From IMG/VR virus record IMGVR_UViG_3300048849_000035, positions 1 through 43,451 of that record: 43,451 nucleotides of DNA; one strand, 5' to 3'. The DNA is from a virus. Lineage: Duplodnaviria; Caudoviricetes. A program made the position numbers and the translations under genes. Of the stretch, positions 435 through 43,103 are shown in pieces. Under the pieces are notes generated by a model. That model worked only from the letters and a program-made list of their open reading frames with translations. It was not told where the DNA came from and did no database searches. Each line of letters opens with the position of its first letter. Within the stretch, counting starts at the first letter, position 1.

Positions 435-472
435 GCGGGTGTGGTGGAATGGTAGACGCGGCGGACTCAAAA
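435..472 (+). tRNA. 5' half of host tRNA-Leu(CAA), interrupted by the prophage at attL
   Basis: GCGGGTG-TG-GTGGAATGGTAGACGC-G-GCGGA-CTCAAAA gives acceptor 5' strand, D arm, anticodon stem 5' strand and CAA loop; non-tRNA sequence follows. Pairs perfectly with 43056-43103. Confidence 0.95.
462..472 (+). repeat. attL core CGGACTCAAAA
   Basis: Identical 11-mer at 43045-43055; includes the 7-nt anticodon loop. Confidence 0.95.
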
Positions 473-485
473 GCTTCTTCAATTA

Positions 486-501
486 TCTCCCTTCGGGGAG
501 A
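486..501. promoter_or_regulatory. Palindrome TCTCCC-TTCG-GGGAGA (CTCC-N6-GGAG candidate operator or hairpin)
   Basis: Perfect inverted repeat 13 bp inside attL; same core at 651, 3418, 37028, 38205, 41223. Confidence 0.55.
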
Positions 502-593
502 AGTTCCCCACACGGCGCTAAATCCCTGGTTTTCCTTGTGATTTTCCAAGGACTTCCGGGCTAGCGCACCAAACCCCCCGACAATCGGATTTC

Positions 594-647
594 TGAGACA
601 CGCGGCCTTGAGACAAAGGCCCGTGTCATCGGCTCCGCATGTCTCAA
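594..647. repeat. TGAGACA/TGTCTCA motif cluster, candidate integrase arm-type sites
   Basis: TGAGACA 594-600, TTGAGACA 608-615, TGTCTCAA 640-647; matching cluster at 42885-42928 on the other side of attP. Confidence 0.55.
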
Positions 648-675
648 TCTCTCCCAATCAGGAGCTTTCCCTCAG

Positions 676-3414
676 ATGGAAACGATGACGCAGGCTGCCC
701 GCCTCCAGGCCCAGATCGACGGCGCGGTGCAGGGACTCGGGAACCACTCCCCGGAACTGATCGAGCGCCAGCTGAAGCTGGAGGGTGAGATGCGTGAGGC
801 TGCCGTGGACCGCGCCCAGCGGATCATCGACGCCGCCAAGCAGAGCGGCCAGGGCGCCGACCTCAAGGCCAACCGGCGGCTCACCTCGGCCTTCGTGGAG
901 ACCCTCGCCAAGAAGATCGAGGAGACCCTGGCCCACCAGAACGCCAAGGGCGGCCGCAGCATGTCCTCGCTGCCCTACCTGACCACCCTGCCGCCCACCT
1001 CCATCGCCTACCTGACCATCCGGGGCGTGCTGGACGCCATCCACGAGAACCCGCTGGTCCAGCAGGTCGCCCGCGTGGTGGCCGACACCATCGAGACGGA
1101 GTTCCGCGCCGGGCTGCTGGAGGCCGCCGACGAGGCCGCCTACAAGGCGATGATGGCCAAGATGCTGGCCCGGTCCCGCGTGCATACCAAGCACGCCGCC
1201 CGCCGCATCGACGCGGGTCTGAAGCACATCAAGCAGGTTGAGGCACACTGGCCCGCGCAGGAGAAGCTCCACCTGGGGATGCTCCTGATCGGCATGGTGG
1301 TCGAAGCCACGGGGCTGATCGAGATCCGCCGGGTCAAGCGCGGGGTCAACGACACCCCCAGCTGCCTCTTCCCGACCGCCGAGACGCTCGACTGGATGCG
1401 CTCCGAGGAGGGCCGCGAGCTTCTCTCCTACCCCGTGACGTGGCCCATGCTGCTGCCGCCGCGCTCCTGGCTGGACGAGGACGGCGGCTCCTACCTGTCG
1501 GGCAAGCCGCGCCTGCGCATGGTGAAGACGCACCTCAAGGGCTATCTGGAGGAGCTTGAGAACCTCGACCTCGACAAGGTGAAGCGCGCCCTGGATGCCG
1601 CCGCCCGCACCGGCTGGCGCGTCCAGAAGGACGTCTACGGGGTGTTCAAGGAGGTCTTCGAGCGCGGCCTGGATGTCGCTGGGCTGCCCAACGTGGACCT
1701 GATCCACTTCCCGGCGCGGCCCGAGGGTCTCGACAAGGACCACCCGGAGATCATCCGCTGGCGCATGGTCACGGCTCGCGCCCATGAGGCACGCAGCGCG
1801 GCGGTAGGCAAGGTGCGCGCCTCGGCGTCGGTCTTCGCCCTGGCCACCCGCTTCCTGAATGACACCTTCTTCTACCCGTACCAGATGGACTTCCGTGGCC
1901 GCCTGTATCCCGGCTGCCCGCACCTGTCCCCGCAGGGCAGCGACCTGTCCAAGGCCCTGCTGACCTTCGCGGAGGGCAAGCCGATCATCACCGAGGGCGC
2001 CCGCCGCTGGCTCGCCATCCATGTCGCCAACACCTGGGGCATGGACAAGGAGAGCCTCGACGACCGCGTGCGCTGGACCGAGGAGAACACGCCCCTGATC
2101 GTTGCGAGCGCGGAAGATCCCCTCGGGAACCTCTGGTGGGCCGACGCCGACAAGGGCAGCAAGCCCTGGCAGATGCTGGCCGCCTGCTTCGAGTGGGCTG
2201 GCTTCATCAAGAAGGGCTGGGGCTACGTCTCCTCCATCCCCATCGGCATGGACGCCACGGCCTCGGGCATCCAGCACTTCTCGGCCATGAAGCGCGACCC
2301 CAAGGGCGGCGCCCTGGTCAACCTCGTGCCCACCCCGAAGCCCTCCGACGCCTATGCGGCGGTGGCCGTGGTCGTGACGCGCAAGCTGGAGGAGATCCTG
2401 CTGGAGACCGTGGACACCCTGCCCGACGCCGTGAAGGCGAAGGTGCTGGCCCGCCAGAAGGCCGCCGAGGAGGCTGCTGAGAAGGCCGCTGAGGCCGCCG
2501 ACGACGCGCTGGAGATGGAGCCGCAGGAGACCAAGAAGACCGGCCCCATGACGCTGGAGGAGGCGCTGAAGGAGCGCCAGGACATGGCCCGCGCGTGGCT
2601 GGCCTTCATCGTCAAGCGCTCCACGACCAAGCGGCCTGTGATGGTCCTGCCATACGGGGGCACCCTCAGCAGCTGCCGCGACTACGTCAAGGCGGACGTG
2701 GCGGAGCGTCTGGCGCGCGGCGAGGCCAACACCTTCCTGCCCTACCTCGACCTGCCCGCCCCGGCGGAGGACGAAGACCCTGGCGAGGCTGTGCGTCGCA
2801 CCGCCGTGGCCGCCTGGAAGGCTTCCGGGTTCCTCGCGCCCATCGTCTGGGCCTCCATCAAGGAGACCGTGGAGGGCGCCCGCACCGTCATGGACTGGCT
2901 CCAGTCGGCTGCCTCCCAGGCGGCCAACGAGGGTCTGCCCATCGTCTGGACCACCCCGGATGGCTTCGTGGTGAACCAGGCCTACCCGGACTTCTCCACC
3001 CGCCGCGTCAAGACCCGCCTCTGCGGCTCCCTGGTGTTCATCACCATGGCCGAGAACGACGAGACGGCCCTGTCCAAGAGCCGTCAGCGCAACGGCATCG
3101 TGCCGAACCTCGTCCACTCCATGGATGGGTGTCAGGCCCGCATGGGCGTGCTGCGGGCGGTGGACATGGGCGTGTCGTCCTTCGCCCTGATCCATGACAG
3201 CTTCGGCACCGTGGCCGCCGACTGCGAGGCGCTGGGCGTGGCGATGCGGCAGGCCTTCGTGGACCTCTACACCGGCTACTGCCCGCTGAAGGCGCTCGAC
3301 AAGAGCATCCGCGAGGTTCTGTCGGAGAAGCTCCAGGCCAAGCTGAAGGAGATCCCCGAGCAGGAAGACTTGGATCTGTCCCTGGTCCTCGCCTCGCCCT
3401 ATTTCATTTCATAA
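676..3414 (+). CDS. T7-like single-subunit RNA polymerase (gp1)
   Basis: Motifs DFRGRLYP, DATASGIQH (A), RSTTKRPVMVLPYG (B), IHDSFGT (C); AGGAG SD at 660-664. Confidence 0.98.
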   Translation: METMTQAARLQAQIDGAVQGLGNHSPELIERQLKLEGEMREAAVDRAQRIIDAAKQSGQGADLKANRRLTSAFVETLAKKIEETLAHQNAKGGRSMSSLPYLTTLPPTSIAYLTIRGVLDAIHENPLVQQVARVVADTIETEFRAGLLEAADEAAYKAMMAKMLARSRVHTKHAARRIDAGLKHIKQVEAHWPAQEKLHLGMLLIGMVVEATGLIEIRRVKRGVNDTPSCLFPTAETLDWMRSEEGRELLSYPVTWPMLLPPRSWLDEDGGSYLSGKPRLRMVKTHLKGYLEELENLDLDKVKRALDAAARTGWRVQKDVYGVFKEVFERGLDVAGLPNVDLIHFPARPEGLDKDHPEIIRWRMVTARAHEARSAAVGKVRASASVFALATRFLNDTFFYPYQMDFRGRLYPGCPHLSPQGSDLSKALLTFAEGKPIITEGARRWLAIHVANTWGMDKESLDDRVRWTEENTPLIVASAEDPLGNLWWADADKGSKPWQMLAACFEWAGFIKKGWGYVSSIPIGMDATASGIQHFSAMKRDPKGGALVNLVPTPKPSDAYAAVAVVVTRKLEEILLETVDTLPDAVKAKVLARQKAAEEAAEKAAEAADDALEMEPQETKKTGPMTLEEALKERQDMARAWLAFIVKRSTTKRPVMVLPYGGTLSSCRDYVKADVAERLARGEANTFLPYLDLPAPAEDEDPGEAVRRTAVAAWKASGFLAPIVWASIKETVEGARTVMDWLQSAASQAANEGLPIVWTTPDGFVVNQAYPDFSTRRVKTRLCGSLVFITMAENDETALSKSRQRNGIVPNLVHSMDGCQARMGVLRAVDMGVSSFALIHDSFGTVAADCEALGVAMRQAFVDLYTGYCPLKALDKSIREVLSEKLQAKLKEIPEQEDLDLSLVLASPYFIS

Positions 3415-3470
3415 TCTCTCCTTTAAGGGAGAGTTCCCCTGTAAGGATATGTCAAGAGCGTGAGCGGGGC

Positions 3471-3690
3471 GAGGTTAGGTTGCACCAGTTGAGAAGACCT
3501 CCGGGTCTCCTCGGCTGGCCCGCCTCCCACGAGGTTAGGTTGCACCACTTGAGAAGACCTCCGGGTCACCTCGGGCCACCTGCCGTGAGGTTAGGTTGCA
3601 CCAGTTGAGGAAGACGCTCCGACGTCCACCCTCCGCATCCTGCCAGTTAGGTTGCACCAGTTGAGGAAGACCCTCCGCCTCCTGCGGTCC
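3471..3690 (+). promoter_or_regulatory. Four tandem phage-RNAP promoters, each followed by a hairpin; likely replication-origin region
   Basis: GTTAGGTTGCACCASTTGAG at 3474, 3534, 3590, 3646 (periods 60, 56, 56); same core at 7684, 18023, 35699; position matches T7 phi1.1A/B and the primary origin. Confidence 0.8.
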
Positions 3691-3804
3691 CATGAGGGGA
3701 TGATAGGGGAGCTTTAAGATGCCCTTGTAGGTGCCTCTTAGGTTTCCCTGCTTCCTACTCCTTCCTGTCCTCACCTTTAACCTTTCCATCTGAAGGGAAC
3801 CTTC

Positions 3805-3978
3805 ATGCCCAAGTCTCGCAAGCCGTCCATCACCATCCGTGCTGGCGCTTCCGGCTACACCGTCGCCACCGCCGATGGTGGTGTCGCTGACCTCCGCAAC
3901 GCGGACATGCACAACATGACCCGCCGCTTCATCCGTCGTGGGGTCGAGATCCAGCACGCCGCCCGCAAGGCGCGCTGA
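3805..3978 (+). CDS. Hypothetical protein, 57 aa
   Basis: MPKSRKPSITIRAGASG...AARKAR; AAGGGA SD; phage-like codon usage. Confidence 0.7.
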   Translation: MPKSRKPSITIRAGASGYTVATADGGVADLRNADMHNMTRRFIRRGVEIQHAARKAR

Positions 3979-4040
3979 TGCTGGGCGCCTTCCTGCTGCT
4001 CCTGATCCTTTTCCTCCTGAACGACGGGGTCGAAGACTGA
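3978..4040 (+). CDS. Putative 20-aa hydrophobic micropeptide
   Basis: TGATG coupling; MLGAFLLLLILFLLNDGVED fills the gap exactly. Confidence 0.45.
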   Translation: MLGAFLLLLILFLLNDGVED

Positions 4041-4042
4041 CC

Positions 4043-4303
4043 ATGAAGCTGAACCGCGATCTGCTGAACACCGTGCCGCTGCGGAAGGCGGCCAACGCCT
4101 GCGTGGCGGTGGTCGATGCCATCCAAGACTTCCCCAAGGAGGTCCAGGCCGTGGCCATCGCAGCCACCTTCGTCCTCCTGGCGGAGCGCTTCGGCCTCCC
4201 CGCCCAGGATCTGATGACGGTCACCAGCAACGTCATGAACCACGCCGAGGGCCGCCGGGCTGAGTTCCAGGCTGTCTCCCGCTACCTGAAGACGGAGGTC
4301 TAA
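4043..4303 (+). CDS. Hypothetical protein, 86 aa
   Basis: MKLNRDLLNTVP...YLKTEV; ATG 4043 preferred over the ORF-track start 3938. Confidence 0.75.
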   Translation: MKLNRDLLNTVPLRKAANACVAVVDAIQDFPKEVQAVAIAATFVLLAERFGLPAQDLMTVTSNVMNHAEGRRAEFQAVSRYLKTEV

Positions 4304-4309
4304 GACCCG

Positions 4310-4534
4310 ATGCCGAACATCGCCCCGCCGCCGACCGCCGCTCCCGCTGGCCTGAAGCGCCGCACGGTCTTCGAGATCGCCCACCCCTCCATGCTCCATG
4401 TGGGCGTCGAGCTTTCCCAGGATGGCAAGGCCGTCGAGATGGACACCCAGATGGGCACCCTGGCCATCTCGGTGGACCGGGTGGACGCCCTGATCCACGC
4501 CCTGCGGGTGCTGAAGGAGGAGGCGGGCGAATGA
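4310..4534 (+). CDS. Hypothetical protein, 74 aa
   Basis: GGAGG SD; tight operon packing. Confidence 0.7.
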   Translation: MPNIAPPPTAAPAGLKRRTVFEIAHPSMLHVGVELSQDGKAVEMDTQMGTLAISVDRVDALIHALRVLKEEAGE

Positions 4535-4704
4535 TCCCGATCCCCGTCATCCCGCCCAAGGAGATCCTCCTGGCGCTCCTTCAGGACGCCAAGGATGCTG
4601 CGAAGGAGCGCCTGGAGCACGCCCTGTGGCGCCTCGACCGGGCCACCAACTACCGCAGCATGCGCCTCTACAAGCTCCGCCTCCGTCTGCTGGGAGCGCG
4701 CTGA
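4531..4704 (+). CDS. Hypothetical protein, 57 aa
   Basis: ATGA overlap, GGAGG SD; MIPIPVIPPKEILL...LLGAR. Confidence 0.65.
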   Translation: MIPIPVIPPKEILLALLQDAKDAAKERLEHALWRLDRATNYRSMRLYKLRLRLLGAR

Positions 4705-4708
4705 CACC

Positions 4709-4828
4709 ATGCTTCGTCTTGCGATGGAACTGATCCGCCAGGGGCTTCCGCTCCCGGTGGACGTACACGCACGTCTGGTGGCCAAGGGCTACGACGTGGA
4801 AACCCTGGTGCGGAAGCACTCCCCCTAA
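4709..4828 (+). CDS. Hypothetical protein, 39 aa
   Basis: MLRLAMELIRQGLPLPVDVHARLVAKGYDVETLVRKHSP; GGGAG upstream. Confidence 0.6.
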   Translation: MLRLAMELIRQGLPLPVDVHARLVAKGYDVETLVRKHSP

Positions 4829-4916
4829 GCAACCCCTCGGGCGCCCTAGCTGCGCCTGAACCTCTCCTCAATCGGGACCGCTCCGCAAGCGGCCCTTTCT
4901 CTACGAAGGAACAACC

Positions 4917-5618
4917 ATGGCCACCATCACCACCCCGCGCGGCGTCTTCGTTTGGCCGAAGCTGAACGCCCCGGATTTCAAGTTCAACTCCGCTGGCGCC
5001 TTCCAGTGCAAGCTGCGGCTCGTCAAGGACAAGGCCCAGGGCCTGATCGACAAGCTCCAGCCGCTGCATGATCAGGCGGTCGAGGACGCCAAGGCCAAGA
5101 TGGCCGAGATGAAGCCTGCCGACCGCAAGAAGGCGGAGCAGAAGTGGCAGGTCCACCCGCTCTATCAGGACGTGCTGGACGAGGAAGGCGACGAGACCGG
5201 CGAGGTCGAGTTCAACTTCAAGATGACCCACTCGGGCACCTCGAAGAAGACCGGCAAGCCCTGGAAGCGCGTCCCCAAGGTGTTCGACGCCAAGGGCAAC
5301 GAGGTCAAGCTGTTCGACAAGAACCGCGAGCCGCTGCGCAACGCCCCGCAGATCTGGGGCGGCACCGAGGGCCGCATCTCGTTCGAGGCCTCGCCCTTCT
5401 ACATGCCCGCCACGGGCTGCGGCCTGAGCCTGCGCCTGGAGGGCGTCCAGATCATCGTCCTGCGTAGCGGCGGCGGCAAGTCGGCCAGCGAGATGGGCTT
5501 CGGCCGCGAGGAAGACGACGATGGCTTCGACGCCAACGAGCAGTCCTACTCCGCCGACGAGGACGGCGAGGGCGGCTCCAGCGGCGGCTCCTCGGATGAC
5601 GATGACACCGACTTCTAA
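4917..5618 (+). CDS. Single-stranded DNA-binding protein (gp2.5-like)
   Basis: TTPRG..WPKL..PD, IWGGTEG, SLRLEGVQII; acidic tail ending in Phe; synteny. Confidence 0.93.
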   Translation: MATITTPRGVFVWPKLNAPDFKFNSAGAFQCKLRLVKDKAQGLIDKLQPLHDQAVEDAKAKMAEMKPADRKKAEQKWQVHPLYQDVLDEEGDETGEVEFNFKMTHSGTSKKTGKPWKRVPKVFDAKGNEVKLFDKNREPLRNAPQIWGGTEGRISFEASPFYMPATGCGLSLRLEGVQIIVLRSGGGKSASEMGFGREEDDDGFDANEQSYSADEDGEGGSSGGSSDDDDTDF

Positions 5619-5641
5619 GCCGGGATCGCGGGCCGCCTGAC

Positions 5642-6058
5642 ATGGCCGCCCCGAAGGCTTCCAAGTTCGCGAAGGCTCTGGCCCTGGGCTACCGCTCAGG
5701 GCTGGAGGTCGCCGTCTCCAAGTTCCTCGACGAGCGTGGCATCCCCTACGAGTACGAGCAGCACACGCTGCCCTACACGCAGGAGCACACCTACACCCCC
5801 GACTTCTACCTGCCGAAGAAGACCGGCGGCTTCATGATCGTGGAGACGAAGGGCTACTTCGCCTCCGGTGATCGCGGGAAGATGCGGCGCATCAAGGCGC
5901 AGCACCCTGGCCTGGACATCCGCTTCGTGTTCAGCAAGCCGCAGAACCGCCTCGGCAAGCGATCCACGACCACCTACGCGATGTGGGCGGAGCAGCATGG
6001 GTTCCCCTGGGCTGCCGTGAAGATCCCCGAGGAGTGGCTGGCGGAGGTCGCGTCGTGA
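5642..6058 (+). CDS. Endonuclease I / Holliday junction resolvase (gp3-like)
   Basis: YRSGLE, YTPDF, VETKG, LDIRFVF motifs. Confidence 0.95.
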   Translation: MAAPKASKFAKALALGYRSGLEVAVSKFLDERGIPYEYEQHTLPYTQEHTYTPDFYLPKKTGGFMIVETKGYFASGDRGKMRRIKAQHPGLDIRFVFSKPQNRLGKRSTTTYAMWAEQHGFPWAAVKIPEEWLAEVAS

Positions 6059-6492
6059 GGCCGATCACCCAGCTGGTGGTCCATTGCTCCGCCACCCAGG
6101 CCAAGGCCGACGTGGGCGTGAAGGAGATCGACCGTTGGCACCGCCAGCGCGGCTTCCTGCGCATCGGCTACCACTTCGTCATCCGCCGCGACGGCACCCT
6201 GGAGACGGGGCGCCCGCTGGAACAGATCGGCGCGCACGTCTCTGGCCACAATAAAGAGTCCATCGGCATCTGTCTGGTGGGCGGTGTACAAGAAGACGGC
6301 AAGACCGCCGAGAACAACTTCACTTCGGAACAGTTCACGCAACTGGCTGCGTTACTGCGCAAGCTCCGCGAGGACTATCCGAATACCGAAATCCGCGGCC
6401 ACCGGGACTTCCCGCGCGTGGCCAAGGACTGCCCCAGCTTCGACGTGAAGACCTGGCTGGGCACCGTCAACATCAATCCCAAAGGAAACTGA
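6055..6492 (+). CDS. N-acetylmuramoyl-L-alanine amidase (gp3.5 lysozyme-like)
   Basis: GTGA overlap; VVHCSAT, IGYHFVIRRDG, GAHV.GHN, GHRDF, KDCPSF. Confidence 0.95.
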   Translation: MRPITQLVVHCSATQAKADVGVKEIDRWHRQRGFLRIGYHFVIRRDGTLETGRPLEQIGAHVSGHNKESIGICLVGGVQEDGKTAENNFTSEQFTQLAALLRKLREDYPNTEIRGHRDFPRVAKDCPSFDVKTWLGTVNINPKGN

Positions 6493-6495
6493 AAC

Positions 6496-7677
6496 ATCTC
6501 TCTGGCTCGCGTCGATATCACCACCCTGGGCGCCAAGCCCGGCCTGACTACCGATATCGGCCCCATCATCCAGCAGGTTCTTGACAGCGGCAAGTCGCCC
6601 TTCATCCCCGCTGGCGACTGGCGCCTCGGCTCCACGGTCGCATTCCGCTGCTCCAGCCAGCGCATCTACGGCGCAGGAAGCGGCCTCGGCGGCGGCACCG
6701 TGGTGCTGCTCAACCCGGCGGCCCCGTACGCCTCCAACATCACCATGATCGGCTCCTGGGGCACCTTCGGGGACGTCGGCGTGGAGGACATCCAGTTCCG
6801 CAACCCACGCACGGGCGCGGTGGACGGCAACGGCCATCCGATCTGGGCGCACCAAGGCGTCGTGATGAACTTTGAAGGCCCCCTGCATGCGCCGCAGATG
6901 ACCTTCTACGTCTCCAACGTCTACATGTGGGAGTGCTGGAACGGCATCCGCGCCGCGCACTTCAACTCGTCCGAGATCCGCAACGTCACCATGCAGGCGA
7001 TGGCGGGCGACTGGGGCATCTATGCCTACGGCGCCAGCGAGGCGGGACGCTGTGACCAGCTGAAGCTGTCCAACATCAACTACAGCGCCAACGACACGGC
7101 CCGCCTCTACAACCGGGGCACGGGCTACTGGATCGACGGCTTCGTCCACACCATCCAGTTCAACCGCGTCGTGGCGGTCACGCCCTACATCGGCTGGCAG
7201 TTCACCAACTCGCCCGGCCTCCCGGCGGGGCAGCAGCCCAACTTCCTGATCGGTGACGATCTGGAGGTGGACTTCCCGAAGTACCACGCGATCTACGCCA
7301 CCCATCTGGATGGCTTCTTCGTCACCAACCTCTACCTGCATGGCTCCCAGCAGGGCAGCGGCTTGGTGGTGGCCAACCCGAACATCGACATGGTCAAGCG
7401 CATCCGCGTCACGCAGGCCAAGATCACCGACCACGCGGGCGACAACGTGCGCCTGCTCTGCGACGATGCCGAGTTCCATTCGGTGGAAGCCACCGGCTGG
7501 ACGACTGGCGTGGCGGTCCTCGCCGGGACGCAACGCTTCTTCGCCGTGGGCGGAGAGTACGGCGGGCGCCGTGGCGTCAGCGCTCCCTGGGGCGTCTGGC
7601 GTGAGAACCCCGCCACCTGGGTGAGCCTCACCGCCGCCAAGTTGGACGGCCACCTGGGCGCCCACAACATCACCTGA
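6496..7677 (+). CDS. Pectate-lyase-like beta-helix protein (putative depolymerase); proposed ATC start
   Basis: Frame is open upstream of ORF-track start 6700 and encodes VDITTLGAKPG..TDIGPIIQQVLDSGKSPFIPAGDW, a typical beta-helix N-cap; AAGGA 6482-6486 then ATC 6496. Confidence 0.7.
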   Translation: MSLARVDITTLGAKPGLTTDIGPIIQQVLDSGKSPFIPAGDWRLGSTVAFRCSSQRIYGAGSGLGGGTVVLLNPAAPYASNITMIGSWGTFGDVGVEDIQFRNPRTGAVDGNGHPIWAHQGVVMNFEGPLHAPQMTFYVSNVYMWECWNGIRAAHFNSSEIRNVTMQAMAGDWGIYAYGASEAGRCDQLKLSNINYSANDTARLYNRGTGYWIDGFVHTIQFNRVVAVTPYIGWQFTNSPGLPAGQQPNFLIGDDLEVDFPKYHAIYATHLDGFFVTNLYLHGSQQGSGLVVANPNIDMVKRIRVTQAKITDHAGDNVRLLCDDAEFHSVEATGWTTGVAVLAGTQRFFAVGGEYGGRRGVSAPWGVWRENPATWVSLTAAKLDGHLGAHNIT

Positions 7678-7680
7678 CCG

Positions 7681-7703: not shown

Positions 7704-7724
7704 GAGCACGTAGCTCCCACCCTC

Positions 7725-8041: not shown

Positions 8042-8049
8042 AGGTCACC

Positions 8050-36785: not shown

Positions 36786-36814
36786 TTGTCTCAACCTCGG
36801 CCAGCGGATAGAAA
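36786..36814 (+). promoter_or_regulatory. Candidate sigma70 early promoter
   Basis: TTGTCT-N17-TAGAAA upstream of boxA and the first early ORF. Confidence 0.5.
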
Positions 36815-36869
36815 CCATTTCACCGGCAGCGAGGCACCCCACCGAAGGGGACGCCAAGCCAGCCGGGAC

Positions 36870-36882
36870 CGCTCTTTGACAA
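36870..36882 (+). promoter_or_regulatory. boxA antitermination element
   Basis: CGCTCTTTGACAA resembles rrn/lambda boxA (GCTCTTTAACA) and lies in the early leader, as in T7/T3. Confidence 0.7.
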
Positions 36883-37080
36883 CCGCATCTGTCGCAAGAC
36901 CCGGCGAGGTAACCGTGCCGGTCAAACTTGAAGCCGCCTGCGATAACCGGGCCGCTCCTGAACGGAACCACACACGAGAGCATGAACGGGCCGCCTAGCG
37001 TGGCCCTGGATTGCTCCGCCCGATCCTCTCCCTTGGCGGAGTGGCTCCGGTGGTGCAACCTCTCCTCGTGAGACGCTCAC

Positions 37081-37278
37081 ATGACCTACAGCAACCGCAA
37101 GGTTGGCGGCATCCGCTTCGTGAAGCTGGGCCGCCTGCAACTCTCCTTCTGCGTGACCAAGGCCGCTCCGAAGCAGGCCGACCGGGCCGCCAAGCGCCCC
37201 CTGGATCACGCTGGGCTGGCCCTGGACGGGCTGGTTCTCGCCTCCTGGGTGGCCGTGGCCGCCGTCTTCTTCTCCTGA
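37081..37278 (+). CDS. Early hypothetical protein, 65 aa
   Basis: MTYSNRKVGGIRFVKLGRLQLSFCV; hydrophobic C-terminus. Confidence 0.7.
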   Translation: MTYSNRKVGGIRFVKLGRLQLSFCVTKAAPKQADRAAKRPLDHAGLALDGLVLASWVAVAAVFFS

Positions 37279-37298
37279 AACCGAACGAGAACGACGCC

Positions 37299-37544
37299 AT
37301 GACCCCCGAGCAAGCCGCCCGCGTGGACACGCACAACGGCACCCTGACCTCCCTGGATGGCCAGACCTTCCGCTACGTCCTCGAGACCCGGCGGCGCTGG
37401 AACATCGGCCTCCGTAAGCACGTCAACGAGTTGACCGGACGCCTTCACGTCACGTCCCCGGACGGAACGGGCCGCACGTTCAGCGGGTGGGCGGACGTCT
37501 TCCCCTGGGTCGAGAAGGCGGCCCGCTGGGCGCTCCAATCCTGA
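37299..37544 (+). CDS. Early hypothetical protein, 81 aa
   Basis: MTPEQAARVDTHNG...WALQS; ATG 37299. Confidence 0.7.
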   Translation: MTPEQAARVDTHNGTLTSLDGQTFRYVLETRRRWNIGLRKHVNELTGRLHVTSPDGTGRTFSGWADVFPWVEKAARWALQS

Positions 37545-37546
37545 CA

Positions 37547-37610
37547 ACCGCCTGACGAGACCCTGAAGGGTCGAAACCTAGGGTGCCCTCGGGCGCCCGA
37601 TGGTCGCGGT
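37547..37610 (+). ncRNA. Type I hammerhead ribozyme
   Basis: Stem I ACCGC/GCGGT; CUGACGA 37552-37558; stem II GACCC-TGAA-GGGTC; GAAA 37573-37576; stem III with GGGTGCC/GGCGCCC; GUC triplet 37603-37605. Confidence 0.88.
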
Positions 37611-37660
37611 GCTGCCTGCATGGTGCGGGCGGAACGACACCGCATCTGAGGAACCGAACC

Positions 37661-37741
37661 ATGAAGCTGGTCTTCGTGAAGGTTCTTCAGGTGCTGGGGT
37701 GGGAAGTGAGAGTGGAAGTCTCACTGTCCCGTAAGCCCTAG
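37661..37741 (+). CDS. Putative 26-aa micropeptide
   Basis: GAGGA SD; MKLVFVKVLQVLGWEVRVEVSLSRKP; followed by a long GC hairpin. Confidence 0.5.
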   Translation: MKLVFVKVLQVLGWEVRVEVSLSRKP

Positions 37742-37822
37742 CGTCCTGAAGGGGCCAGGGGTGGCCTAAACGCTGCCCCTGGTTCCCGGAAGGATGCCCC
37801 TCCTCTCCCTGGATTTCAAGCC

Positions 37823-38173
37823 ATGTCCTCCATCTACGAGCAGCACACCGCCGCCTTCGCCCAGGTCTCCGGTTTCGTCGTCATGGACGGCGCCGAGCGG
37901 GTCGCCACGGTGGGCCTCAAGTTCCCCAAGGACGGCGCCGGGCGCCTCTGGGCCTACGTCCACTGGGTCGGAACGCCGATGGTCCGGGGCAGCGCCGGGG
38001 GCTACGGCTACGACAAGCGGAGCGCGGCGGTGGCTGCGGCGGCGGGCAAGCTGTCCGATGCGGACGCCACGGGGCGCTTCCACGACTTCAAGGCCGCCGC
38101 GATGAAAGACGGCGGGTGGGGCTGGACGCGGAACCTTGAGAAGGCGGGCTTCACGGTCCTCCAGGCGGTCTAG
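37823..38173 (+). CDS. Early hypothetical protein, 116 aa
   Basis: Strong codon bias; GSAGGYGYDKRSAA motif. Confidence 0.8.
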   Translation: MSSIYEQHTAAFAQVSGFVVMDGAERVATVGLKFPKDGAGRLWAYVHWVGTPMVRGSAGGYGYDKRSAAVAAAAGKLSDADATGRFHDFKAAAMKDGGWGWTRNLEKAGFTVLQAV

Positions 38174-38314
38174 CTGCGCCCTGATCCCTCCTGAACCGGC
38201 GAGGCTCCCTCTGCGGAGCCTCCTGGCGACCCTCCTGGCAGCCATCGGGGCGCGTCTCCGGTGGCTCCTAGGTGAGCCGCTCCTGGCCACTCGAACGCAC
38301 CCGAACGGTGACCC

Positions 38315-38767
38315 ATGCAAGTCCGCATCTACCGCAACCTCACCCGCTCCTGCCTGAGCATCCAGGCGAAGACCGCCAAGGGCTGGCGGGTGATCGCCCA
38401 CGCCTCCGCCGCCGAGCTTGAGGGCGTCTCCTTCGAGGTCAACGAACGGGTGCGCCAGCGCGTGCTGGCCACCGGGCACAAGGAAGTCCACGCCTACGCG
38501 GTCGGCACCCTGGTCGGCTGGACCGGCTCCCTGGTGGTCTCCCATGAGGCGCCTGAGGCGGCAATCCTGGCCATCCGGGCGGCTCCTCCGGTGCCTGAGT
38601 GGGCCTTCCCCGTCTCCTACAACCCGCGCCGCCAAGGCGCCTTCCACCGGGTGACCGGGCGCCCCTATGGCGACCCCTCCCTGCGCGGCTGCGCTTGGCT
38701 CTGCATGTCGCCCGTGAAGATGGGCGCGGTGGGCCTCCGCTACGTCGATCCGGCGGGCAACGGCTGA
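38315..38767 (+). CDS. Early phage hypothetical protein, 150 aa
   Basis: VRIYRNL..SI..VIAH..F.V..RQRV..KEVHA..SYNP pattern recalled from phage hypothetical proteins. Confidence 0.8.
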   Translation: MQVRIYRNLTRSCLSIQAKTAKGWRVIAHASAAELEGVSFEVNERVRQRVLATGHKEVHAYAVGTLVGWTGSLVVSHEAPEAAILAIRAAPPVPEWAFPVSYNPRRQGAFHRVTGRPYGDPSLRGCAWLCMSPVKMGAVGLRYVDPAGNG

Positions 38768-38768
38768 G

Positions 38769-38855
38769 ATGGCCCGCGCCCTCCTCTGGCTCTCCGCTTG
38801 GCTGCTGGCCTGGGGCGCGATGCTCCACCAGATCGGCCTCCTGAACCTCCGCTAA
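38769..38855 (+). CDS. Putative 28-aa membrane micropeptide
   Basis: MARALLWLSAWLLAWGAMLHQIGLLNLR, starts 1 nt after the upstream stop. Confidence 0.55.
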   Translation: MARALLWLSAWLLAWGAMLHQIGLLNLR

Positions 38856-38883
38856 CCCTCCCTCGCACGAACGAGACCGACCC

Positions 38884-39063
38884 ATGACCATCGCCAAGGC
38901 CCAGGCCGCCGCGCGCCATTACGGCTGCTCCATTCGCTCCTCCAACGGAGAGTTCCGCGTGAACCTCTCGGGCGGCAAGGAAGCCACCGCCTACTACACC
39001 AACTGCCTGGACGACGCGGTTGCCACCGCCCGCGCCATGGCCCTCGAAGCGAAGGGGGCCTGA
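38884..39063 (+). CDS. Early hypothetical protein, 59 aa
   Basis: MTIAKAQ...GEFRVNL...ATAYYTNCLDDAVATARAM. Confidence 0.7.
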   Translation: MTIAKAQAAARHYGCSIRSSNGEFRVNLSGGKEATAYYTNCLDDAVATARAMALEAKGA

Positions 39064-39066
39064 GCC

Positions 39067-39312
39067 ATGAGCTTCCGTGACCTGCTCCCGCAGCTGCTGC
39101 CCATGATGACCCTGCAACACGCCCGCGACATCGCGGACATGAGCATCGTGGCGGGCCACCGCTGCGCCTCCCGAGACCGCGCCTTGCGCGCCATTGAGGT
39201 GCTGGAGGAGCACCAGAAGAACGTCGAGGACATCCGCCGGGCGGGCCAGCTTCGCGCCCTGCTGGACGTCACCCTGGCGCCCACCGCGTGGCCGAACCAA
39301 TGGCCGACCTGA
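39067..39312 (+). CDS. Early hypothetical protein, 81 aa
   Basis: AAGGGGG SD; tight packing. Confidence 0.65.
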   Translation: MSFRDLLPQLLPMMTLQHARDIADMSIVAGHRCASRDRALRAIEVLEEHQKNVEDIRRAGQLRALLDVTLAPTAWPNQWPT

Positions 39313-39386
39313 TCGTGTGGCTGCTGGCCTGGGGCACCTTCCTGGCCGCCTTCTTCTGCTTCACCGCCTGGATGTACGGCTGGTGA
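39300..39386 (+). CDS. Putative 28-aa membrane micropeptide
   Basis: MADLIVWLLAWGTFLAAFFCFTAWMYGW; TGATG coupling to the next ORF. Confidence 0.55.
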   Translation: MADLIVWLLAWGTFLAAFFCFTAWMYGW

Positions 39387-39538
39387 TGGCCCCCGAGCAA
39401 CTCGCCGCCGAGATCGAGCGCGCCAGGGCGGAGGTCTTCCGCCTGGAATGCGCGGACGACCGGGCCGCCCTCAACGGCTCCCTCGGGGCCGCCTACGAGC
39501 GCCTAGCGCGCCTCCAGGCCCTCCTCGCCTCCTCCTGA
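39386..39538 (+). CDS. Early hypothetical protein, 50 aa
   Basis: MAPEQLAAEIERARAEV...LLASS. Confidence 0.6.
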   Translation: MAPEQLAAEIERARAEVFRLECADDRAALNGSLGAAYERLARLQALLASS

Positions 39539-39648
39539 CCCTCACACCCGCGCGCTGGGCCGCTCCTGGCGCGCGTAGTGAAGGCCCGGCCTTCCATCCC
39601 TCGGCGCCCGAAGTGCGCCCGGATGCCTCCCCTACCGGAACAACTCCG

Positions 39649-40593
39649 ATGCCCAACCTGAACGACCGCCACCTCCCGCGCCACATGCTGGAGGCTCTCC
39701 GCGACCCCGCGCAGATGCACCAGCCGCGCGCCATCCGCCCTCGCAACGAGATGCGCATGGAGATGCCGCCGCTGCGCCTCGCGGGCTTCCTGCGGTCCCG
39801 CATGGACCACGCCGTGGCTCACGAGATCAAGGTCAAGCGCGTTCGCCTGGGCGGCGCGGCGATGCCTGAGGCGGACCACTTCGACCCTCTCGGGCGTCCC
39901 CTGGGCGGCGGCCTGCCGCTCTCGCCGGTCTCCTACGGCGGCCTGACGCGGTCCTCCAGGCGGAGCGCCCTGCGCCGGTCTGAGCGCCCCGTGTCGAAGG
40001 ACTTCGGCGGCGAGTGGGCGGTAGGCGAGCGCGTCCACCGGGTGGCCTCCTTGGCGGAGCTTCAGAACCGCCTGAGGGCGCGAGGCTGGGAGCAGGTCGG
40101 CGCGGGCTACTACGGCACCGCCCACGCGAAGGGGGGCCTGGTTTGGAAGATCAGCAGCCGCCACGATGACGGATACAAGGTCTGGGCGTGGATGGTCCTC
40201 ACCGGCAAGCTGGCCCACCGCTGCGCCAACCTGCCGCGCATCAAGCTGATGCTGGTGGATGATACGGGCGCCTGCGCGGTGCTGATGGAGCGCCTGGACT
40301 GCACCCTGGGCGAGGCGATCTTCGGCCAGAAGCCTGCGCATACGCGCCACCACCGCGCCGCCATGGCCTTCGAGGCGGACCACGACAGGTTCCACTACAA
40401 CGGAAAGCTGACCGGGTTCGACCCGAAGCACGCCGAGATCTTCCACATCCTGCGGCTGCTGCGCCTGGGGATGCAGGGCAGCGAGCAGTTCGAGGGCGCC
40501 GAACGCCTCACGCGCCACTCCGAGGACTTCCACAGGGGCAACTTCATGCTCCGCAAGGACGGCACCGTGGTCATCACCGACCCGATCTGCTGA
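39649..40593 (+). CDS. Ser/Thr protein kinase (T7 gp0.7-like)
   Basis: VGAGYYG glycine loop, VWK lysine, NLPRI, DFHRGNFM catalytic loop, VITDP; early-region position. Confidence 0.85.
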   Translation: MPNLNDRHLPRHMLEALRDPAQMHQPRAIRPRNEMRMEMPPLRLAGFLRSRMDHAVAHEIKVKRVRLGGAAMPEADHFDPLGRPLGGGLPLSPVSYGGLTRSSRRSALRRSERPVSKDFGGEWAVGERVHRVASLAELQNRLRARGWEQVGAGYYGTAHAKGGLVWKISSRHDDGYKVWAWMVLTGKLAHRCANLPRIKLMLVDDTGACAVLMERLDCTLGEAIFGQKPAHTRHHRAAMAFEADHDRFHYNGKLTGFDPKHAEIFHILRLLRLGMQGSEQFEGAERLTRHSEDFHRGNFMLRKDGTVVITDPIC

Positions 40594-40638
40594 CCGCCTG
40601 AGCTTTCCCTGAACCCCTCCTGAGATCGAGACGATATC

Positions 40639-40797
40639 ATGCCGGAATATTACAAAGTCCTGATTTTCGCGAACCACCGTTCGCTCAAGCCCATGCACGA
40701 GACGCTGATCGCGGCGCGGACGCGCTCCGAGGCGAACCGCATGGCACGGGACGCAGCCCAGGCGGTCGGCGGCTCCTACTTCCGGGTTGAGGCGTGA
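40639..40797 (+). CDS. Hypothetical protein, 52 aa
   Basis: MPEYYKVLIFANH...SYFRVEA. Confidence 0.6.
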   Translation: MPEYYKVLIFANHRSLKPMHETLIAARTRSEANRMARDAAQAVGGSYFRVEA

Positions 40798-41257
40798 TCT
40801 CTTGCGCCTCCCTCCGCCGCCCAAAACGGGCAATGCGGTCCTGTCAACCCTGGGACGCATCTATAGCAACCTCCCGCCAGACGCTGTGGAATGCAGGCGT
40901 CTAGTGATGGGGGAGATCATCCGGGCGGAGGCAACTCCACCGGGTGGTTTGGTGCCGGTTTACGTCGTCGGAAAGACGCGCATTCCGGTTGAAATTGCGC
41001 TAAACCCAACGCGCTACCACGAGTCGAGACACCCTAAGTGCCACAGGCACGCACCCATTCGAGAAACCCTGGCGGTCGTTTTCAGACCACACCTCCAGAG
41101 GCTCTCGGATGGGATAAAATCCCTCCTCTTCAGCAAAGGCTCTGCCTCGGGGAAAGTTCACATTTCGTTGACTTCCCCTTATTCGCATGCCAAAAACCTC
41201 CCACCGGACGTGGAGACACCGTCTCCCCTTTCGGAGCGTCTTTCCGAAAATTTATGA
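40787..41257 (+). CDS. Doubtful ORF in a lower-GC segment
   Basis: ORF track only; atypical codon usage. Confidence 0.25.
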   Translation: MRRDLLRLPPPPKTGNAVLSTLGRIYSNLPPDAVECRRLVMGEIIRAEATPPGGLVPVYVVGKTRIPVEIALNPTRYHESRHPKCHRHAPIRETLAVVFRPHLQRLSDGIKSLLFSKGSASGKVHISLTSPYSHAKNLPPDVETPSPLSERLSENL

Positions 41258-41283
41258 CCTTGGGACGGCACGGCCGGGACAAA

Positions 41284-41553
41284 ATGCGCTCCATCTTCTT
41301 CCGCATTGCGAATGTTGAGTTTTTTGCTGAGTGGGACGGCATCCATGCCTCGGAGCCGTCTGGAATGCGTGTTTTGCATGACGGGGCACTGTTGAAGCTT
41401 GGCCGTTTTGCCGTAGTGGTGAGCCGGACACCCCCTAAAGGACGTGCAGAGACATGCCCAACACCCCTAAGCCTCGCGCTGTCGGGAAGCTGGTCGCCTT
41501 GTTTGACCTGCTTCGCGATCTCAACCCCGAGATGCCCGCTCAGTCTGCTCTGA
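41284..41553 (+). CDS. Possible small protein upstream of the repressor
   Basis: MRSIFFRIANVEFFAEWD...LLKLGRFAVVVSR looks protein-like; 3' end overlaps the next gene by 100 nt. Confidence 0.4.
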   Translation: MRSIFFRIANVEFFAEWDGIHASEPSGMRVLHDGALLKLGRFAVVVSRTPPKGRAETCPTPLSLALSGSWSPCLTCFAISTPRCPLSLL

Positions 41554-41795
41554 CGCTGCTCTTGGTTGCGCAGTCGCCAGGGATTGCGATTGGCGAGCTT
41601 CAGCAAAGGCTCAACGTCGCATCTTCAACGATGTCGAGAAACATCTCGATAATGTCGGAGCATCGCGGCAAAGGCGAGGCCGGTTTGGGCCTAATCGAGA
41701 CCCGAGAAGATGTAATGGATCGCCGTATAAAGCGCGTCTGGCTGACCGCTCGCGGCGAGAATGTCCTCAACCGCATATCGACATTATTTGAATGA
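41454..41795 (+). CDS. MarR-like winged-helix regulator (putative prophage repressor)
   Basis: PGIAIGELQQRLNVASSTMSRNI HTH; GLI..REDVMDRRIKRVWLTARG wing; adjacent to integrase. Confidence 0.9.
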   Translation: MPNTPKPRAVGKLVALFDLLRDLNPEMPAQSALTLLLVAQSPGIAIGELQQRLNVASSTMSRNISIMSEHRGKGEAGLGLIETREDVMDRRIKRVWLTARGENVLNRISTLFE

Positions 41796-41805
41796 GAGGT
41801 ATTGC

Positions 41806-42822
41806 ATGGGCATCCGCGCGCGCGGCGCCGTATTCACCGCCGACATTGCAGTAAAGGGCAAGCGTTGGCGACGAGACTTTCAGACTAGGTCCGAGGCCGA
41901 GCAATGGTTCTTAGAAAACCTCGCTCGCGCCAAACGGGGGGAAACACCAGACCTCGGAGAGGCTCCTACTGAGCGCAGCGCAGCTGCCGTAGGAACCCTC
42001 GCGATGGCCCGAGACGCCGCCGACGCCCGTTGGTGGCACGACAAGCGCAGCGTGGTCCAGATCAGGCGCCACGCTGCCGAGGCGGTCGAGCACTTCGGTG
42101 CGGACACGCCCTGCTCCGAGATCACGACCACCAAAATCGACGCCTGGGCGGACCAGCTGCGCGCCAAAGGCCTCGCAGGGAGCAGCATCAACCACCGCAT
42201 GGCGGTGATCTCCAAGATGCTCCGCGCCGCCGCCCTCAAGGGCTGGATCACCGCCAAGCCGGTCATCGAACGCGCCACCCCGGCGCCCGGTCGGCTGCGA
42301 TGGCTGTCCGAGGAAGAGGAGGAGCGGCTGCTGGCCGTCATGCTCCGCCACGGGTGGCTCACCGAGGCTCGCCTGACCCGCTTCCTGATCGAGCAAGGCG
42401 CCCGCGTGAGCGAGGCTCTGGCACTCGTCGAGAAGGACTTCGAGGGGCAGCGCCGGGTCACCTTCTGGAAGACCAAGAACGGCAAGCCGCGCACCGTACC
42501 GCTCACCAAGCGCGCGCTGGAGTACCTCCCGGCGTTCACCGGGCGTCCGACCGAGAGCGTCTTCAAGCTCTCCTACGGCGGCTACTACCACCGCTTCCTC
42601 AAGGCGGTCGCGGAGGCGGGTATGGGGGACGACGTGGTGATCCACACGCTCCGCCACACCAGCTGCTCCCGCAAGGCGCGCGACGGGATGCTGATCCTGG
42701 CCATCAAGGAATGGCACGGCCACTCGTCCCTGGCGGTCACCGAACGCTACGCCCACCTCGCTCCGAGGATGCTTGAGGGCGAGCTTGAGCGGCTCGAAGC
42801 TGCTCTCATCCGGGCCGCGTAA
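41806..42822 (+). CDS. int: Tyrosine integrase
   Basis: GARVSE (R), KTKNG (K), HTLRH (HxxR), GHSS (H), ERYAH (Y); GAGAGG SD before ATG 41806. Confidence 0.96.
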   Translation: MGIRARGAVFTADIAVKGKRWRRDFQTRSEAEQWFLENLARAKRGETPDLGEAPTERSAAAVGTLAMARDAADARWWHDKRSVVQIRRHAAEAVEHFGADTPCSEITTTKIDAWADQLRAKGLAGSSINHRMAVISKMLRAAALKGWITAKPVIERATPAPGRLRWLSEEEEERLLAVMLRHGWLTEARLTRFLIEQGARVSEALALVEKDFEGQRRVTFWKTKNGKPRTVPLTKRALEYLPAFTGRPTESVFKLSYGGYYHRFLKAVAEAGMGDDVVIHTLRHTSCSRKARDGMLILAIKEWHGHSSLAVTERYAHLAPRMLEGELERLEAALIRAA

Positions 42823-42884
42823 ATCCGTTTCAGACGGTAGACTTCCGACCTCTCCACCTGTAAATCCGCTCCATGTCGCAGGCG

Positions 42885-42928
42885 TGTCTCGCTGTCTCAA
42901 CTTGAGACAAACCTGTGCCATGGAGACA
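42885..42928. repeat. TGTCTC/GAGACA motif cluster, candidate arm-type sites
   Basis: TGTCTC 42885, palindrome TGTCTCAA-C-TTGAGACA 42893-42909, GGAGACA 42922. Confidence 0.55.
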
Positions 42929-42938
42929 CCTCCACTCT

Positions 42939-43023
42939 GCCCGAGTGGCGAAACGGTAAACGCAGCGCACTCAAAATGCGCCGTCTTTTCATAGACTTGT
43001 CGGTTCAACTCCGACCTCGGGCA
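42939..43023 (+). tRNA. Phage-encoded complete tRNA-Leu(CAA), CCA not encoded
   Basis: Acceptor GCCCGAG/CTCGGGC-A; D arm GCGAAACGGTAAACGC; anticodon arm GCGCA-CTCAAAA-TGCGC; variable arm GTCT/AGAC; T arm GTCGG-TTCAACT-CCGAC. Confidence 0.93.
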
Positions 43024-43044
43024 TTCCCATTTTTCAACTCAGGT

Positions 43045-43103
43045 CGGACTCAAAATCCGCTTCTGGTGACAGAGTGTCGGTTCGAGTCCGACCACCCGCA
43101 CCA
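43045..43103 (+). tRNA. attR core plus 3' half of host tRNA-Leu(CAA)
   Basis: CGGACTCAAAA-TCCGC, variable arm, GTCGG-TTCGAGT-CCGAC, CACCCGC-A-CCA; complements 435-472. Confidence 0.95.

What the first reader, a model, noticed from the sequence alone, without database searches (positions are those of the whole stretch)
435..43103. Disrupt-and-replace integration: host tRNA-Leu(CAA) is left split and the phage supplies a whole substitute tRNA
Seen: the host gene is in two halves (435-472 and 43056-43103) and neither junction rebuilds it. A complete, diverged tRNA-Leu with the same CAA anticodon lies at 42939-43023, 21 bp before attR. Established: tRNA-targeting integrases normally carry the displaced tRNA portion in attP and restore the gene. 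Inference: here the lysogen depends on the phage copy for this isoacceptor, which would favour keeping the prophage end and could give the phage leverage over UUG decoding.
Basis: partly seen in the sequence, partly recalled or inferred. Interest (0 to 1): 0.9.

Follow-up and report, generated by a model that had tools for sequence, protein, structure and literature searches.

The report
Prophage splits tRNA, carries its replacement
A T7-like prophage sits in the anticodon loop of its host's leucine tRNA gene, leaves that gene in two pieces, and carries a whole tRNA with the same anticodon that likely replaces it, a design already described for related phages.

Summary
A 42.6-kb T7-like prophage sits between two 11-bp cores (462-472, 43045-43055) in the anticodon loop of a Pseudoroseomonas-type tRNA-Leu(CAA). 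Both halves match the intact gene of P. ludipueritiae exactly. Neither junction rebuilds it. The window's only tRNA is the phage's Leu(CAA), 73% identical, lying between arm-like repeats and the core.

The same layout is described for T7-like pelagiphages (2018), Rhizobium vTRX32-1 prophages (2021) and S. meliloti prophages (2024). It was named tRNA-dependent lysogeny in mycobacteriophages, including Gaia at Leu-CAA. This scan also noted it on other DNA.

Added here:
- Carried and target anticodons agree in 19 of 20 scorable loci by a blind rule.
- The sister integrase (71%) targets and carries UAA instead.
- Two small inserts (5.8 and 1.7 kb) keep the incoming tRNA as the genome's only intact UAA match.

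Dependence is likely but unproven. CAA is single-copy in 23 of 23 relatives and non-disruptable in Caulobacter, but UAA may wobble-read UUG. Phage leverage over UUG is not supported. Verdict: new member of a known kind.

The parts
1..281 (-). Host cysE (serine acetyltransferase), 5' part, cut by the window edge
   Evidence: 89.6% DNA match to L083; the L083 orthologue hits SATase_N. The window fragment alone gave no Pfam hit.
435..472 (+). Host tRNA-Leu(CAA) 5' half through the anticodon loop (attL)
   Evidence: Identical to L083:2892-2929; no tRNA called at attL.
462..472 (+). attL core, 11 bp: 4 bases of anticodon stem plus the 7-base loop
   Evidence: Exact repeat with 43045-43055, unique in the window.
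485..500 (+). 6-bp hairpin with a UUCG loop just inside attL; possible brake on read-through from the host tRNA promoter (inference)
   Evidence: RNAfold. It has no U tract and the terminator scan did not call it.
594..646 (.). Putative arm-type integrase sites, left set (TGAGACA at 594 and 609, TGTCTCA at 640)
   Evidence: 5 of the 6 exact copies in the window lie within 200 bp of a core; the arm role is inferred.
676..3414 (+). T7-type single-subunit RNA polymerase, first prophage gene
   Evidence: PF00940 and PF14700.
473..43044 (+). T7-like prophage body (SSB, primase-helicase, DNA polymerase, portal, scaffold, capsid, nozzle, tail fibre, terminase); the 21 ORFs checked are open
   Evidence: Pfam and PHROGs; one stop per ORF.
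41454..41795 (+). MarR-like regulator, putative repressor
   Evidence: HTH_27 and MarR hits, phrog_9665.
41806..42822 (+). Tyrosine integrase with R200, K224, H280, R283, H306 and Y315
   Evidence: PF00589; invariant columns of A1; the catalytic labels are recalled.
42885..42929 (.). Putative arm-type sites, right set, upstream of the phage tRNA
   Evidence: similar repeats stand before the sister phage's tRNA.
42939..43023 (+). Phage tRNA-Leu(CAA): full cloverleaf, long variable arm, A73, no encoded CCA; shares only 8 of the 11 core bases
43045..43055 (+). attR core, 11 bp
43056..43103 (+). Host tRNA-Leu(CAA) 3' half with CCA; no D arm or acceptor 5' strand in front of it
   Evidence: Identical to L083; not called as a tRNA.
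43127..43451 (+). Host SMR-family transporter gene, 23 bp after the tRNA 3' half
   Evidence: PF00893; 94% identical to P. ludipueritiae.

Best explanation
[quoted passage not shown] Shown: split gene, short core, no rebuilt tRNA, a whole same-anticodon tRNA, and anticodon matching across relatives. Inferred: the tRNA is made from the MarR-integrase transcript or a promoter I could not find, is trimmed and given CCA by host enzymes, and is charged by host LeuRS. In the orientation seen here the phage would otherwise have to supply the 5' half and a promoter, as relatives do. A whole tRNA frees it from matching the host's stems, and its changed anticodon stem may keep it from being an integration target itself. 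Odds of near-strict dependence: about 0.6.
For: Anatomy. Single intact CAA gene in 23 of 23 genus genomes; one gene for each of five Leu anticodons among the 10 long tRNAs fetched of 43 matches in G001. 17 of 82 IMG/VR loci with a related integrase hold a tRNA, all Leu. Carried and core anticodons agree in 19 of 20 scorable loci; after dropping one near-copy, 18 of 19, reached in 12 of 200,000 permutations. The same split-and-replace is seen with both junctions in G413 and G146 (10-bp cores, UAA) and at attR in L194, L063 and L310. UUG is 210 of 6021 Leu codons and occurs in 100 of 145 crude ORFs of G408; UUA is 8. Caulobacter tRNA(UUG), annotated tRNA-Leu, is listed non-disruptable beside tRNA(UUA) (PMC3202797 supplement 2). 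Requirement was shown experimentally for Fionnbharth and cluster L (PMC10865867). A PolyA_pol/CCA-family gene is present in 5 of 5 relatives.
Against: The lysogen's own chromosome is not held: G000 is the window alone. There is no expression evidence: the one RNA run laid did not cover the phage tRNA, and no sigma-70 promoter was called at 40500-41850 or 42700-43200. An intact UAA gene is present in 19 of 23 relatives and mnmG in 5 of 5, so wobble reading of UUG is possible. E. coli with disrupted leuX is described as altered in FimB translation, not as dead (review passage, PMC11316696), and a Salmonella TraDIS passage names no Leu tRNA among the required non-wobble tRNAs (PMC3632133). L055 has an attR-like 3' half with no tRNA in its 16.5-kb locus. 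The loci in the anticodon test are related, so the permutation figure overstates independence.
Confidence: 0.85

Rival explanations
1. The same architecture, but the substitute gives a fitness gain only: host tRNA-Leu(UAA) with modified U34 reads UUG well enough for the lysogen to live without any CAA tRNA.
For: An intact UAA gene in 19 of 23 relatives; mnmG in 5 of 5; leuX disruption in E. coli described as regulatory; Salmonella passage. UAA wobble on UUG is recalled knowledge.
Against: The Caulobacter UUG-reading tRNA is non-disruptable although a UUA reader is present. CAA is kept in 23 of 23 genomes. UUG outnumbers UUA 210 to 8 in G408.
Confidence: 0.35
2. The phage tRNA serves lytic growth or control (UUG supply, resistance to an anticodon nuclease, or tuning of the repressor), and compensation is incidental.
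For: The MarR-like gene has 3 UUG in 16 Leu codons against 13 of 856 elsewhere (p=0.002). PMC10865867 raises anticodon-nuclease defence as a possibility.
Against: Phage UUG use is below the host relative's (1.8% against 3.5%, p=0.008). UUG-rich MarR genes also occur in phages with no CAA tRNA (L054, L079, L289), and the CAA carrier L080 has none. The anticodon follows the target site, not codon use. The anticodon loop is identical to the host's, so a loop-cutting nuclease would likely see both (inference).
Confidence: 0.08
3. An ordinary tRNA-restoring site was damaged after integration (for example 3 bases lost at attL), or the contig is misassembled, and the nearby tRNA is a leftover.
For: After the core, attL reads GCTTCT, which also follows three bases further on in the host 3' half. 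The X1 contigs overlap each junction by fewer than 31 bases on the host side.
Against: The sister remnant G146 also reads GCT after its core, where its host half does not. No rest of a T arm or acceptor stem follows attL. The same design occurs in independent lysogens and in free-phage attP contigs.
Confidence: 0.03

Closest known systems
Temperate T7-like Rhizobium phages vTRX32-1/RHEph01 (PMC8631192; passages seen)
   Same: 42-45 kb Autographiviridae prophages of an alphaproteobacterium; 12-bp core inside host tRNA-Leu; the phage's tRNA-Leu lacks the motif and is proposed to replace the host gene and block super-integration.
   Different: Their core holds the UAG loop (my reading of the printed motif; Lo5R7ANS has the same loop and a UAG tRNA). 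Here the anticodon is CAA and the host is Acetobacteraceae.
HTVC019P-type pelagiphages HTVC025P, 119P, 200P, 019P (bioRxiv 10.1101/410191; passages and section 11 seen)
   Same: attP between integrase and RNAP; mid-tRNA core; host tRNA-Leu split and the phage tRNA 'likely used instead'; environmental attR reads with integrase, whole tRNA-Leu, then the 3' half.
   Different: SAR11 hosts; UAG, UAA or Cys targets; integrases are distant (HTVC200P 33.5% over 69% of the query).
tRNA-dependent lysogeny of actinobacteriophages: Fionnbharth, cluster L, Gaia (PMC10865867; parts 1, 2, 4, 5 of 8 read)
   Same: Tyrosine integrase, about 10-bp core, no rebuilt tRNA, same-isotype phage tRNA. Gaia uses tRNA-Leu-CAA with an 8-bp core and carries Leu-CAA downstream of int.
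   Different: Other phage groups and host phylum. Requirement was tested there for Lys-TTT cases; here it is untested. In Fionnbharth the tRNA overlaps gene 37; here it lies between arm-like repeats and the core.
Lo5R7ANS-like prophages of Sinorhizobium meliloti AK21 and RU11/001 (PMC11476347; passages seen)
   Same: Integration in the middle of a tRNA-Leu, replaced by a prophage copy of about 80% identity.
   Different: UAG isoacceptor; Rhizobiaceae host.
Canonical tRNA-restoring integration (3'-half duplication)
   Same: T7-like prophages of the same host family use it at Arg(CCT) in G185, Ser(GCT) in G411 and Gly(CCC) in G067.
   Different: Those keep an intact tRNA at one junction and a duplicated 3' half at the other; this one shares 11 bp and restores nothing.

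Membership tests
tRNA-dependent lysogeny (PMC10865867) | Phage-encoded tyrosine integrase | tested here: met
   PF00589 and phrog_1; catalytic-type residues invariant in A1.
tRNA-dependent lysogeny (PMC10865867) | attB overlaps a host tRNA gene | tested here: met
   Empty site intact in L083.
tRNA-dependent lysogeny (PMC10865867) | Short (about 10 bp) common core | tested here: met
   11 bp.
tRNA-dependent lysogeny (PMC10865867) | No functional tRNA rebuilt at attL or attR | tested here: met
   ARAGORN (default and -ps70) and Rfam.
tRNA-dependent lysogeny (PMC10865867) | [quoted passage not shown] | tested here: met
   Leu(CAA) at 42939-43023.
tRNA-dependent lysogeny (PMC10865867) | The disrupted host tRNA is non-redundant and essential | tested here: inconclusive
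   Single-copy in 23 of 23 relatives and non-disruptable in Caulobacter; but the own chromosome is not held and an intact UAA gene is present in 19 of 23.
tRNA-dependent lysogeny (PMC10865867) | Phage tRNA expressed in the lysogen | tested here: inconclusive
   No RNA cover in the one RNA run laid; no promoter called.
tRNA-dependent lysogeny (PMC10865867) | Phage tRNA required for lysogen survival (clear plaques or no integrants without it) | not testable with these tools
   Needs genetics.
Temperate T7-like (Autographiviridae-type) phages with a MarR-int-attP-RNAP module | Single-subunit RNAP and T7-type replication and virion genes | tested here: met
Temperate T7-like (Autographiviridae-type) phages with a MarR-int-attP-RNAP module | MarR-like gene and integrase, with attP between integrase and RNAP | tested here: met
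   Integrase ends at 42822, cores at 43045 and 462, RNAP starts at 676; same order in LUZ100, CRP-113 and HTVC200P.
Canonical tRNA-restoring integration | attP carries the displaced tRNA half and restores the gene | tested here: not met

The most novel reading that the evidence does not exclude
T7-like prophages are a route by which bacteria permanently swap their leucine tRNA genes. One integrase family moves between supplying a 5' half and supplying a whole tRNA placed inside attP, and switches target and cargo anticodon together (CAA here, UAA in the 71%-identical sister; three separate CAA placements in a quick tree). When the prophage decays, the incoming tRNA stays as the cell's only copy while the host halves erode: 42.6 kb here, 5.8 kb in G146, 1.7 kb in G263.
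Probability: 0.5. Interest if true: 0.5.

Novelty: new member of a known kind. Interest (0 to 1): 0.3.

Why it matters
As a single case it adds a CAA target and an Acetobacteraceae host to a design already reported in T7-like phages of SAR11 and rhizobia. In the papers read, the requirement for the phage tRNA was tested only in actinobacteriophages. A proteobacterial CAA case is the sharper test, because UAA wobble could make the host gene dispensable, so it would separate essential complementation from fitness repair. The comparative series (half or whole tRNA, matched anticodon switches, remnants that keep only the tRNA) bears on the question left open in PMC10865867 of how this strategy relates to canonical integration. 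It also shows why BLAST for long tRNA matches misses such att sites.

Tried and rejected
Searches that found nothing:
- Direct look-ups with the window integrase found no relatives in genome contigs or viral contigs.
- An exact 28-base pattern from the phage tRNA had 0 matches in viral contigs.
- The A1 search of 401 family genomes scored only 5 candidates per genome and gave 10 weak hits; no Leu tRNA was called in its 14 loci, so it does not show absence.
- G087 and G167 (RNAP hits) lie on short contigs without att sites.
- The CAA attR pattern in viral contigs gave 13 matches, of which only L310 is a true attR.

Ideas tested and dropped:
- UUG-rich repressor as a sensor: not consistent across 23 loci examined.
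- General avoidance of the core by the phage tRNA's anticodon stem: holds here (8 of 11 bases) and in G413 and G146, but L043, L047 and L051 share the core's inner stem bases, so it is not a rule.
- Origin of the phage tRNA: identities of 67-74% to 26 CAA genes, 64-73% to 22 UAA-pattern loci and 54-75% to 22 phage tRNAs do not name a donor.
- The divergent UAA genes in the genus looked like possible phage leftovers, but none has an integrase or split halves in its 3-kb locus.

Weak or incomplete results:
- Promoter scans found none.
- Runs X2-X16 hold small shares only. The X8 RNA contig covers the empty host site and part of SMR, which shows neither a transcript nor the phage. No attP joint was reported in X1 contigs, but contigs drop rare forms.
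- The careful tree did not finish; only the quick tree is used.
- Paper searches listed no description of a Roseomonas or Pseudoroseomonas case; most subscription journals are not in the library.
Full report
OBSERVATION. The window is a single virus record with short host flanks; no host chromosome is held. An 11-bp exact repeat lies at 462-472 and 43045-43055 and nowhere else in the window. It consists of four bases of the anticodon stem and the 7-base loop. Window 435-472 and 43045-43103 occur letter for letter in the intact tRNA-Leu(CAA) of Pseudoroseomonas ludipueritiae, between cysE and an SMR gene; the flanks are 89.6% and 91.6% identical. The computed empty site gives an 86-nt tRNA-Leu(CAA); attL gives none, and attR gives only the phage gene. 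ARAGORN and Rfam each find one tRNA in the window, Leu(CAA) at 42939-43023. It is 21 bp before the core, 73% identical to the host gene, and has no encoded CCA. Contigs of run X1 match the window exactly over 443-2500 and 41400-43074 at depths of about 101 and 97, so they run 19 bases beyond each core. X1 may be the source sample, and this is below the tool's bridging rule.

WHAT IT IS. Between the cores lies a 42.6-kb T7-like prophage: RNAP right after attL, T7-type replication and virion genes, then a MarR-like gene and a tyrosine integrase before attR. The 21 ORFs I checked are open. Five of six exact TGAGACA/TGTCTCA copies lie within 200 bp of a core. If these are arm-type sites (inference), the tRNA sits inside attP, between the arms and the core. 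The best named matches to the flanking SMR protein are Pseudoroseomonas and Roseomonas, at 91-94%.

RELATIVES. Of 82 IMG/VR loci with a related integrase, 17 hold a tRNA and all 17 are Leu: 15 UAA and 2 CAA. In free-phage contigs the order is typically integrase, tRNA, a bare copy of the anticodon loop, then the next gene.

I scored 23 loci with a whole Leu tRNA: the window, those 17, L192, L194, LUZ100, Lo5R7ANS and HTVC200P. Three end at the contig edge. Of the other 20, a rule blind to the anticodon found a matching loop in 19. The one miss is the window itself, where a chance 7-mer precedes the known core. Dropping one near-copy gives 18 of 19, reached in 12 of 200,000 permutations; the loci are related, so this overstates independence. 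L195 and L197 (UAA tRNA near a contig end, possibly a restored host gene) and the non-Leu loci were left out.

The nearest integrase (71%; P0002, named in Roseomonas mucosa) is followed in L194 by a whole tRNA-Leu(UAA), a UAA core and a host 3' half. In a quick tree of 87 of 105 integrases it is sister to the window's (SH-aLRT 100), and the three CAA rows need three changes; the careful search did not finish. Both junctions show the same split in G413 (42.2 kb, 10-bp core) and G146 (5.8 kb, 10-bp core). L063 and L310 show it at attR, L310 with CAA.

By contrast, G185, G411 and G067 restore Arg, Ser and Gly tRNAs by 3'-half duplication. In 11 of 18 loci that I picked and read by eye, a tRNA-Leu 5' half ends at or just past the loop after the integrase. 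L055 is unexplained: a 3' half with no tRNA in its locus.

HOW IT LIKELY WORKS. In this orientation the integrase end abuts the host 3' half, so a restoring phage must supply the 5' half and a promoter, and that half must pair with the host's 3' strands. The window host's 5' half would pair fully with 10 of 23 CAA genes of the genus, whereas the loop is identical in 21 of 23 and the 11-mer in 12 of 23. A whole tRNA removes this constraint (inference). It lies on the same strand as MarR and integrase. The scans called no terminator upstream of it on that strand and no promoter (41850-42700 was not scanned), so co-transcription is a guess. Missing CCA is normal here: 9 of 23 CAA and 12 of 18 UAA genes lack it, and a PolyA_pol/CCA-family gene is in 5 of 5 relatives. 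The phage tRNA shares 8 of the 11 core bases. Avoidance of super-integration was proposed in PMC8631192, but it is not general in my set.

DEPENDENCE. For: there is exactly one intact CAA gene in 23 of 23 genus genomes. UUG makes up 210 of 6021 Leu codons and is in 100 of 145 crudely called ORFs from 240 kb of G408, against 8 UUA. In Caulobacter Tn-seq, CCNA_99963 is listed as non-disruptable 'tRNA (UUG)' and annotated tRNA-Leu, although the UUA reader is also present (PMC3202797, passages and supplement 2 rows; I read the labels as codons). Against: an intact UAA gene is in 19 of 23 relatives (20 pattern hits, one not a tRNA) and mnmG in 5 of 5. A review describes E. coli leuX disruption as affecting FimB translation (PMC11316696 passage; the original was not seen). 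A Salmonella TraDIS passage lists no Leu among required non-wobble tRNAs (PMC3632133). I put near-strict dependence at about 0.6.

RETENTION. In G146 the element has shrunk to 5.8 kb. Only RNAP residues 17-309 and integrase residues 279-322 still match, the latter fused to a terminase-like frame, yet the phage tRNA is the only intact UAA match in the genome. In G263 a 1.7-kb insert with no integrase hit splits Leu(UAA). The host 5' half has lost a loop base, and the incoming tRNA is the only exact UAA match; its T7-like origin is not shown. These two were the only hits among 401 family genomes for the attR pattern. Two cases at an isoacceptor with no wobble backup fit retention but do not prove selection, since ends also survive internal deletions.

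LEVERAGE. The phage uses UUG in 16 of 872 Leu codons, less than G408 (p=0.008). The MarR excess (3 of 16) is not tied to CAA carriage in other phages.

KNOWN SYSTEMS. PMC10865867 (parts 1, 2, 4, 5 of 8 read) defines tRNA-dependent lysogeny and lists Gaia at Leu-CAA with an 8-bp core. bioRxiv 10.1101/410191 (passages, section 11) reports the same outcome for HTVC025P, 119P, 200P and 019P and the same attR order in ocean reads. PMC8631192 (passages) reports it for T7-like Rhizobium prophages with a 12-bp core. PMC11476347 (passages) reports it for S. meliloti at Leu(UAG), and PMC12429752 (passages) restates that. PMC10134795 (passages) reads LUZ100's tRNA-Leu as an excision leftover, but LUZ100 has a matching UAA loop after its integrase, which fits replacement better. 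PMC4836647 (passages) gave only the leuX/leuZ anticodons. Earlier notes of this scan report the design in several islands on other DNA (unchecked).

VERDICT. Real and well supported; all five sequence-level criteria of tRNA-dependent lysogeny are met, and the functional ones are untested. It is a new member of a known kind, interest 0.3.

Noticed in passing
window 43103-43127 and 435-472: The SMR transporter gene starts 23 bp after the host tRNA's CCA. Integration moves the host tRNA promoter 42.6 kb away, so SMR transcription in the lysogen may depend on phage read-through, while the host promoter now points at the phage RNAP gene (inference).
   Followed up: partly
G146:C1:3766236-3772077 (L224): 5.8-kb decayed sister prophage with truncated, fused RNAP and terminase/integrase frames; it keeps the tRNA-Leu(UAA), the only intact UAA match in that genome.
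   Followed up: yes
G263:C12:612860-614600 (L318, L320): 1.7-kb integrase-less insert in tRNA-Leu(UAA) with a whole replacement, one 222-aa ORF and a decaying host 5' half.
   Followed up: partly
L287 (LUZ100, OP329100.1) 2403-2488 and about 3660: LUZ100's tRNA-Leu(UAA) is paired with a bare UAA anticodon loop between integrase and RNAP, a likely attP core. The passages read treat the tRNA as an excision leftover and do not mention attP.
   Followed up: partly
L055:7415-7640: Host-like tRNA-Leu(UAA) 3' half after a related integrase, with neither a 5' half nor a whole tRNA in the 16.5-kb locus; unexplained.
   Followed up: no
L194:1155-1640: The sister phage carries an HNH-like ORF (my reading of the sequence, not scanned) between integrase and tRNA; the window has none there.
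   Followed up: no
L238, L239, L025: Leu(CAA) loops that start with U instead of C in two genus genomes and in one phage attP core.
   Followed up: no
window 39448-40593: 381-aa early ORF with only a short C-terminal hit to phrog_15752 (T7 gp0.7-like kinase family) and no Pfam hit.
   Followed up: no
G334:C1:959521-975700 (L189, L190): About 16-kb element with a distant integrase (1 TGA inside the match) at tRNA-Gly(GCC), with a canonical 3'-half duplication.
   Followed up: no
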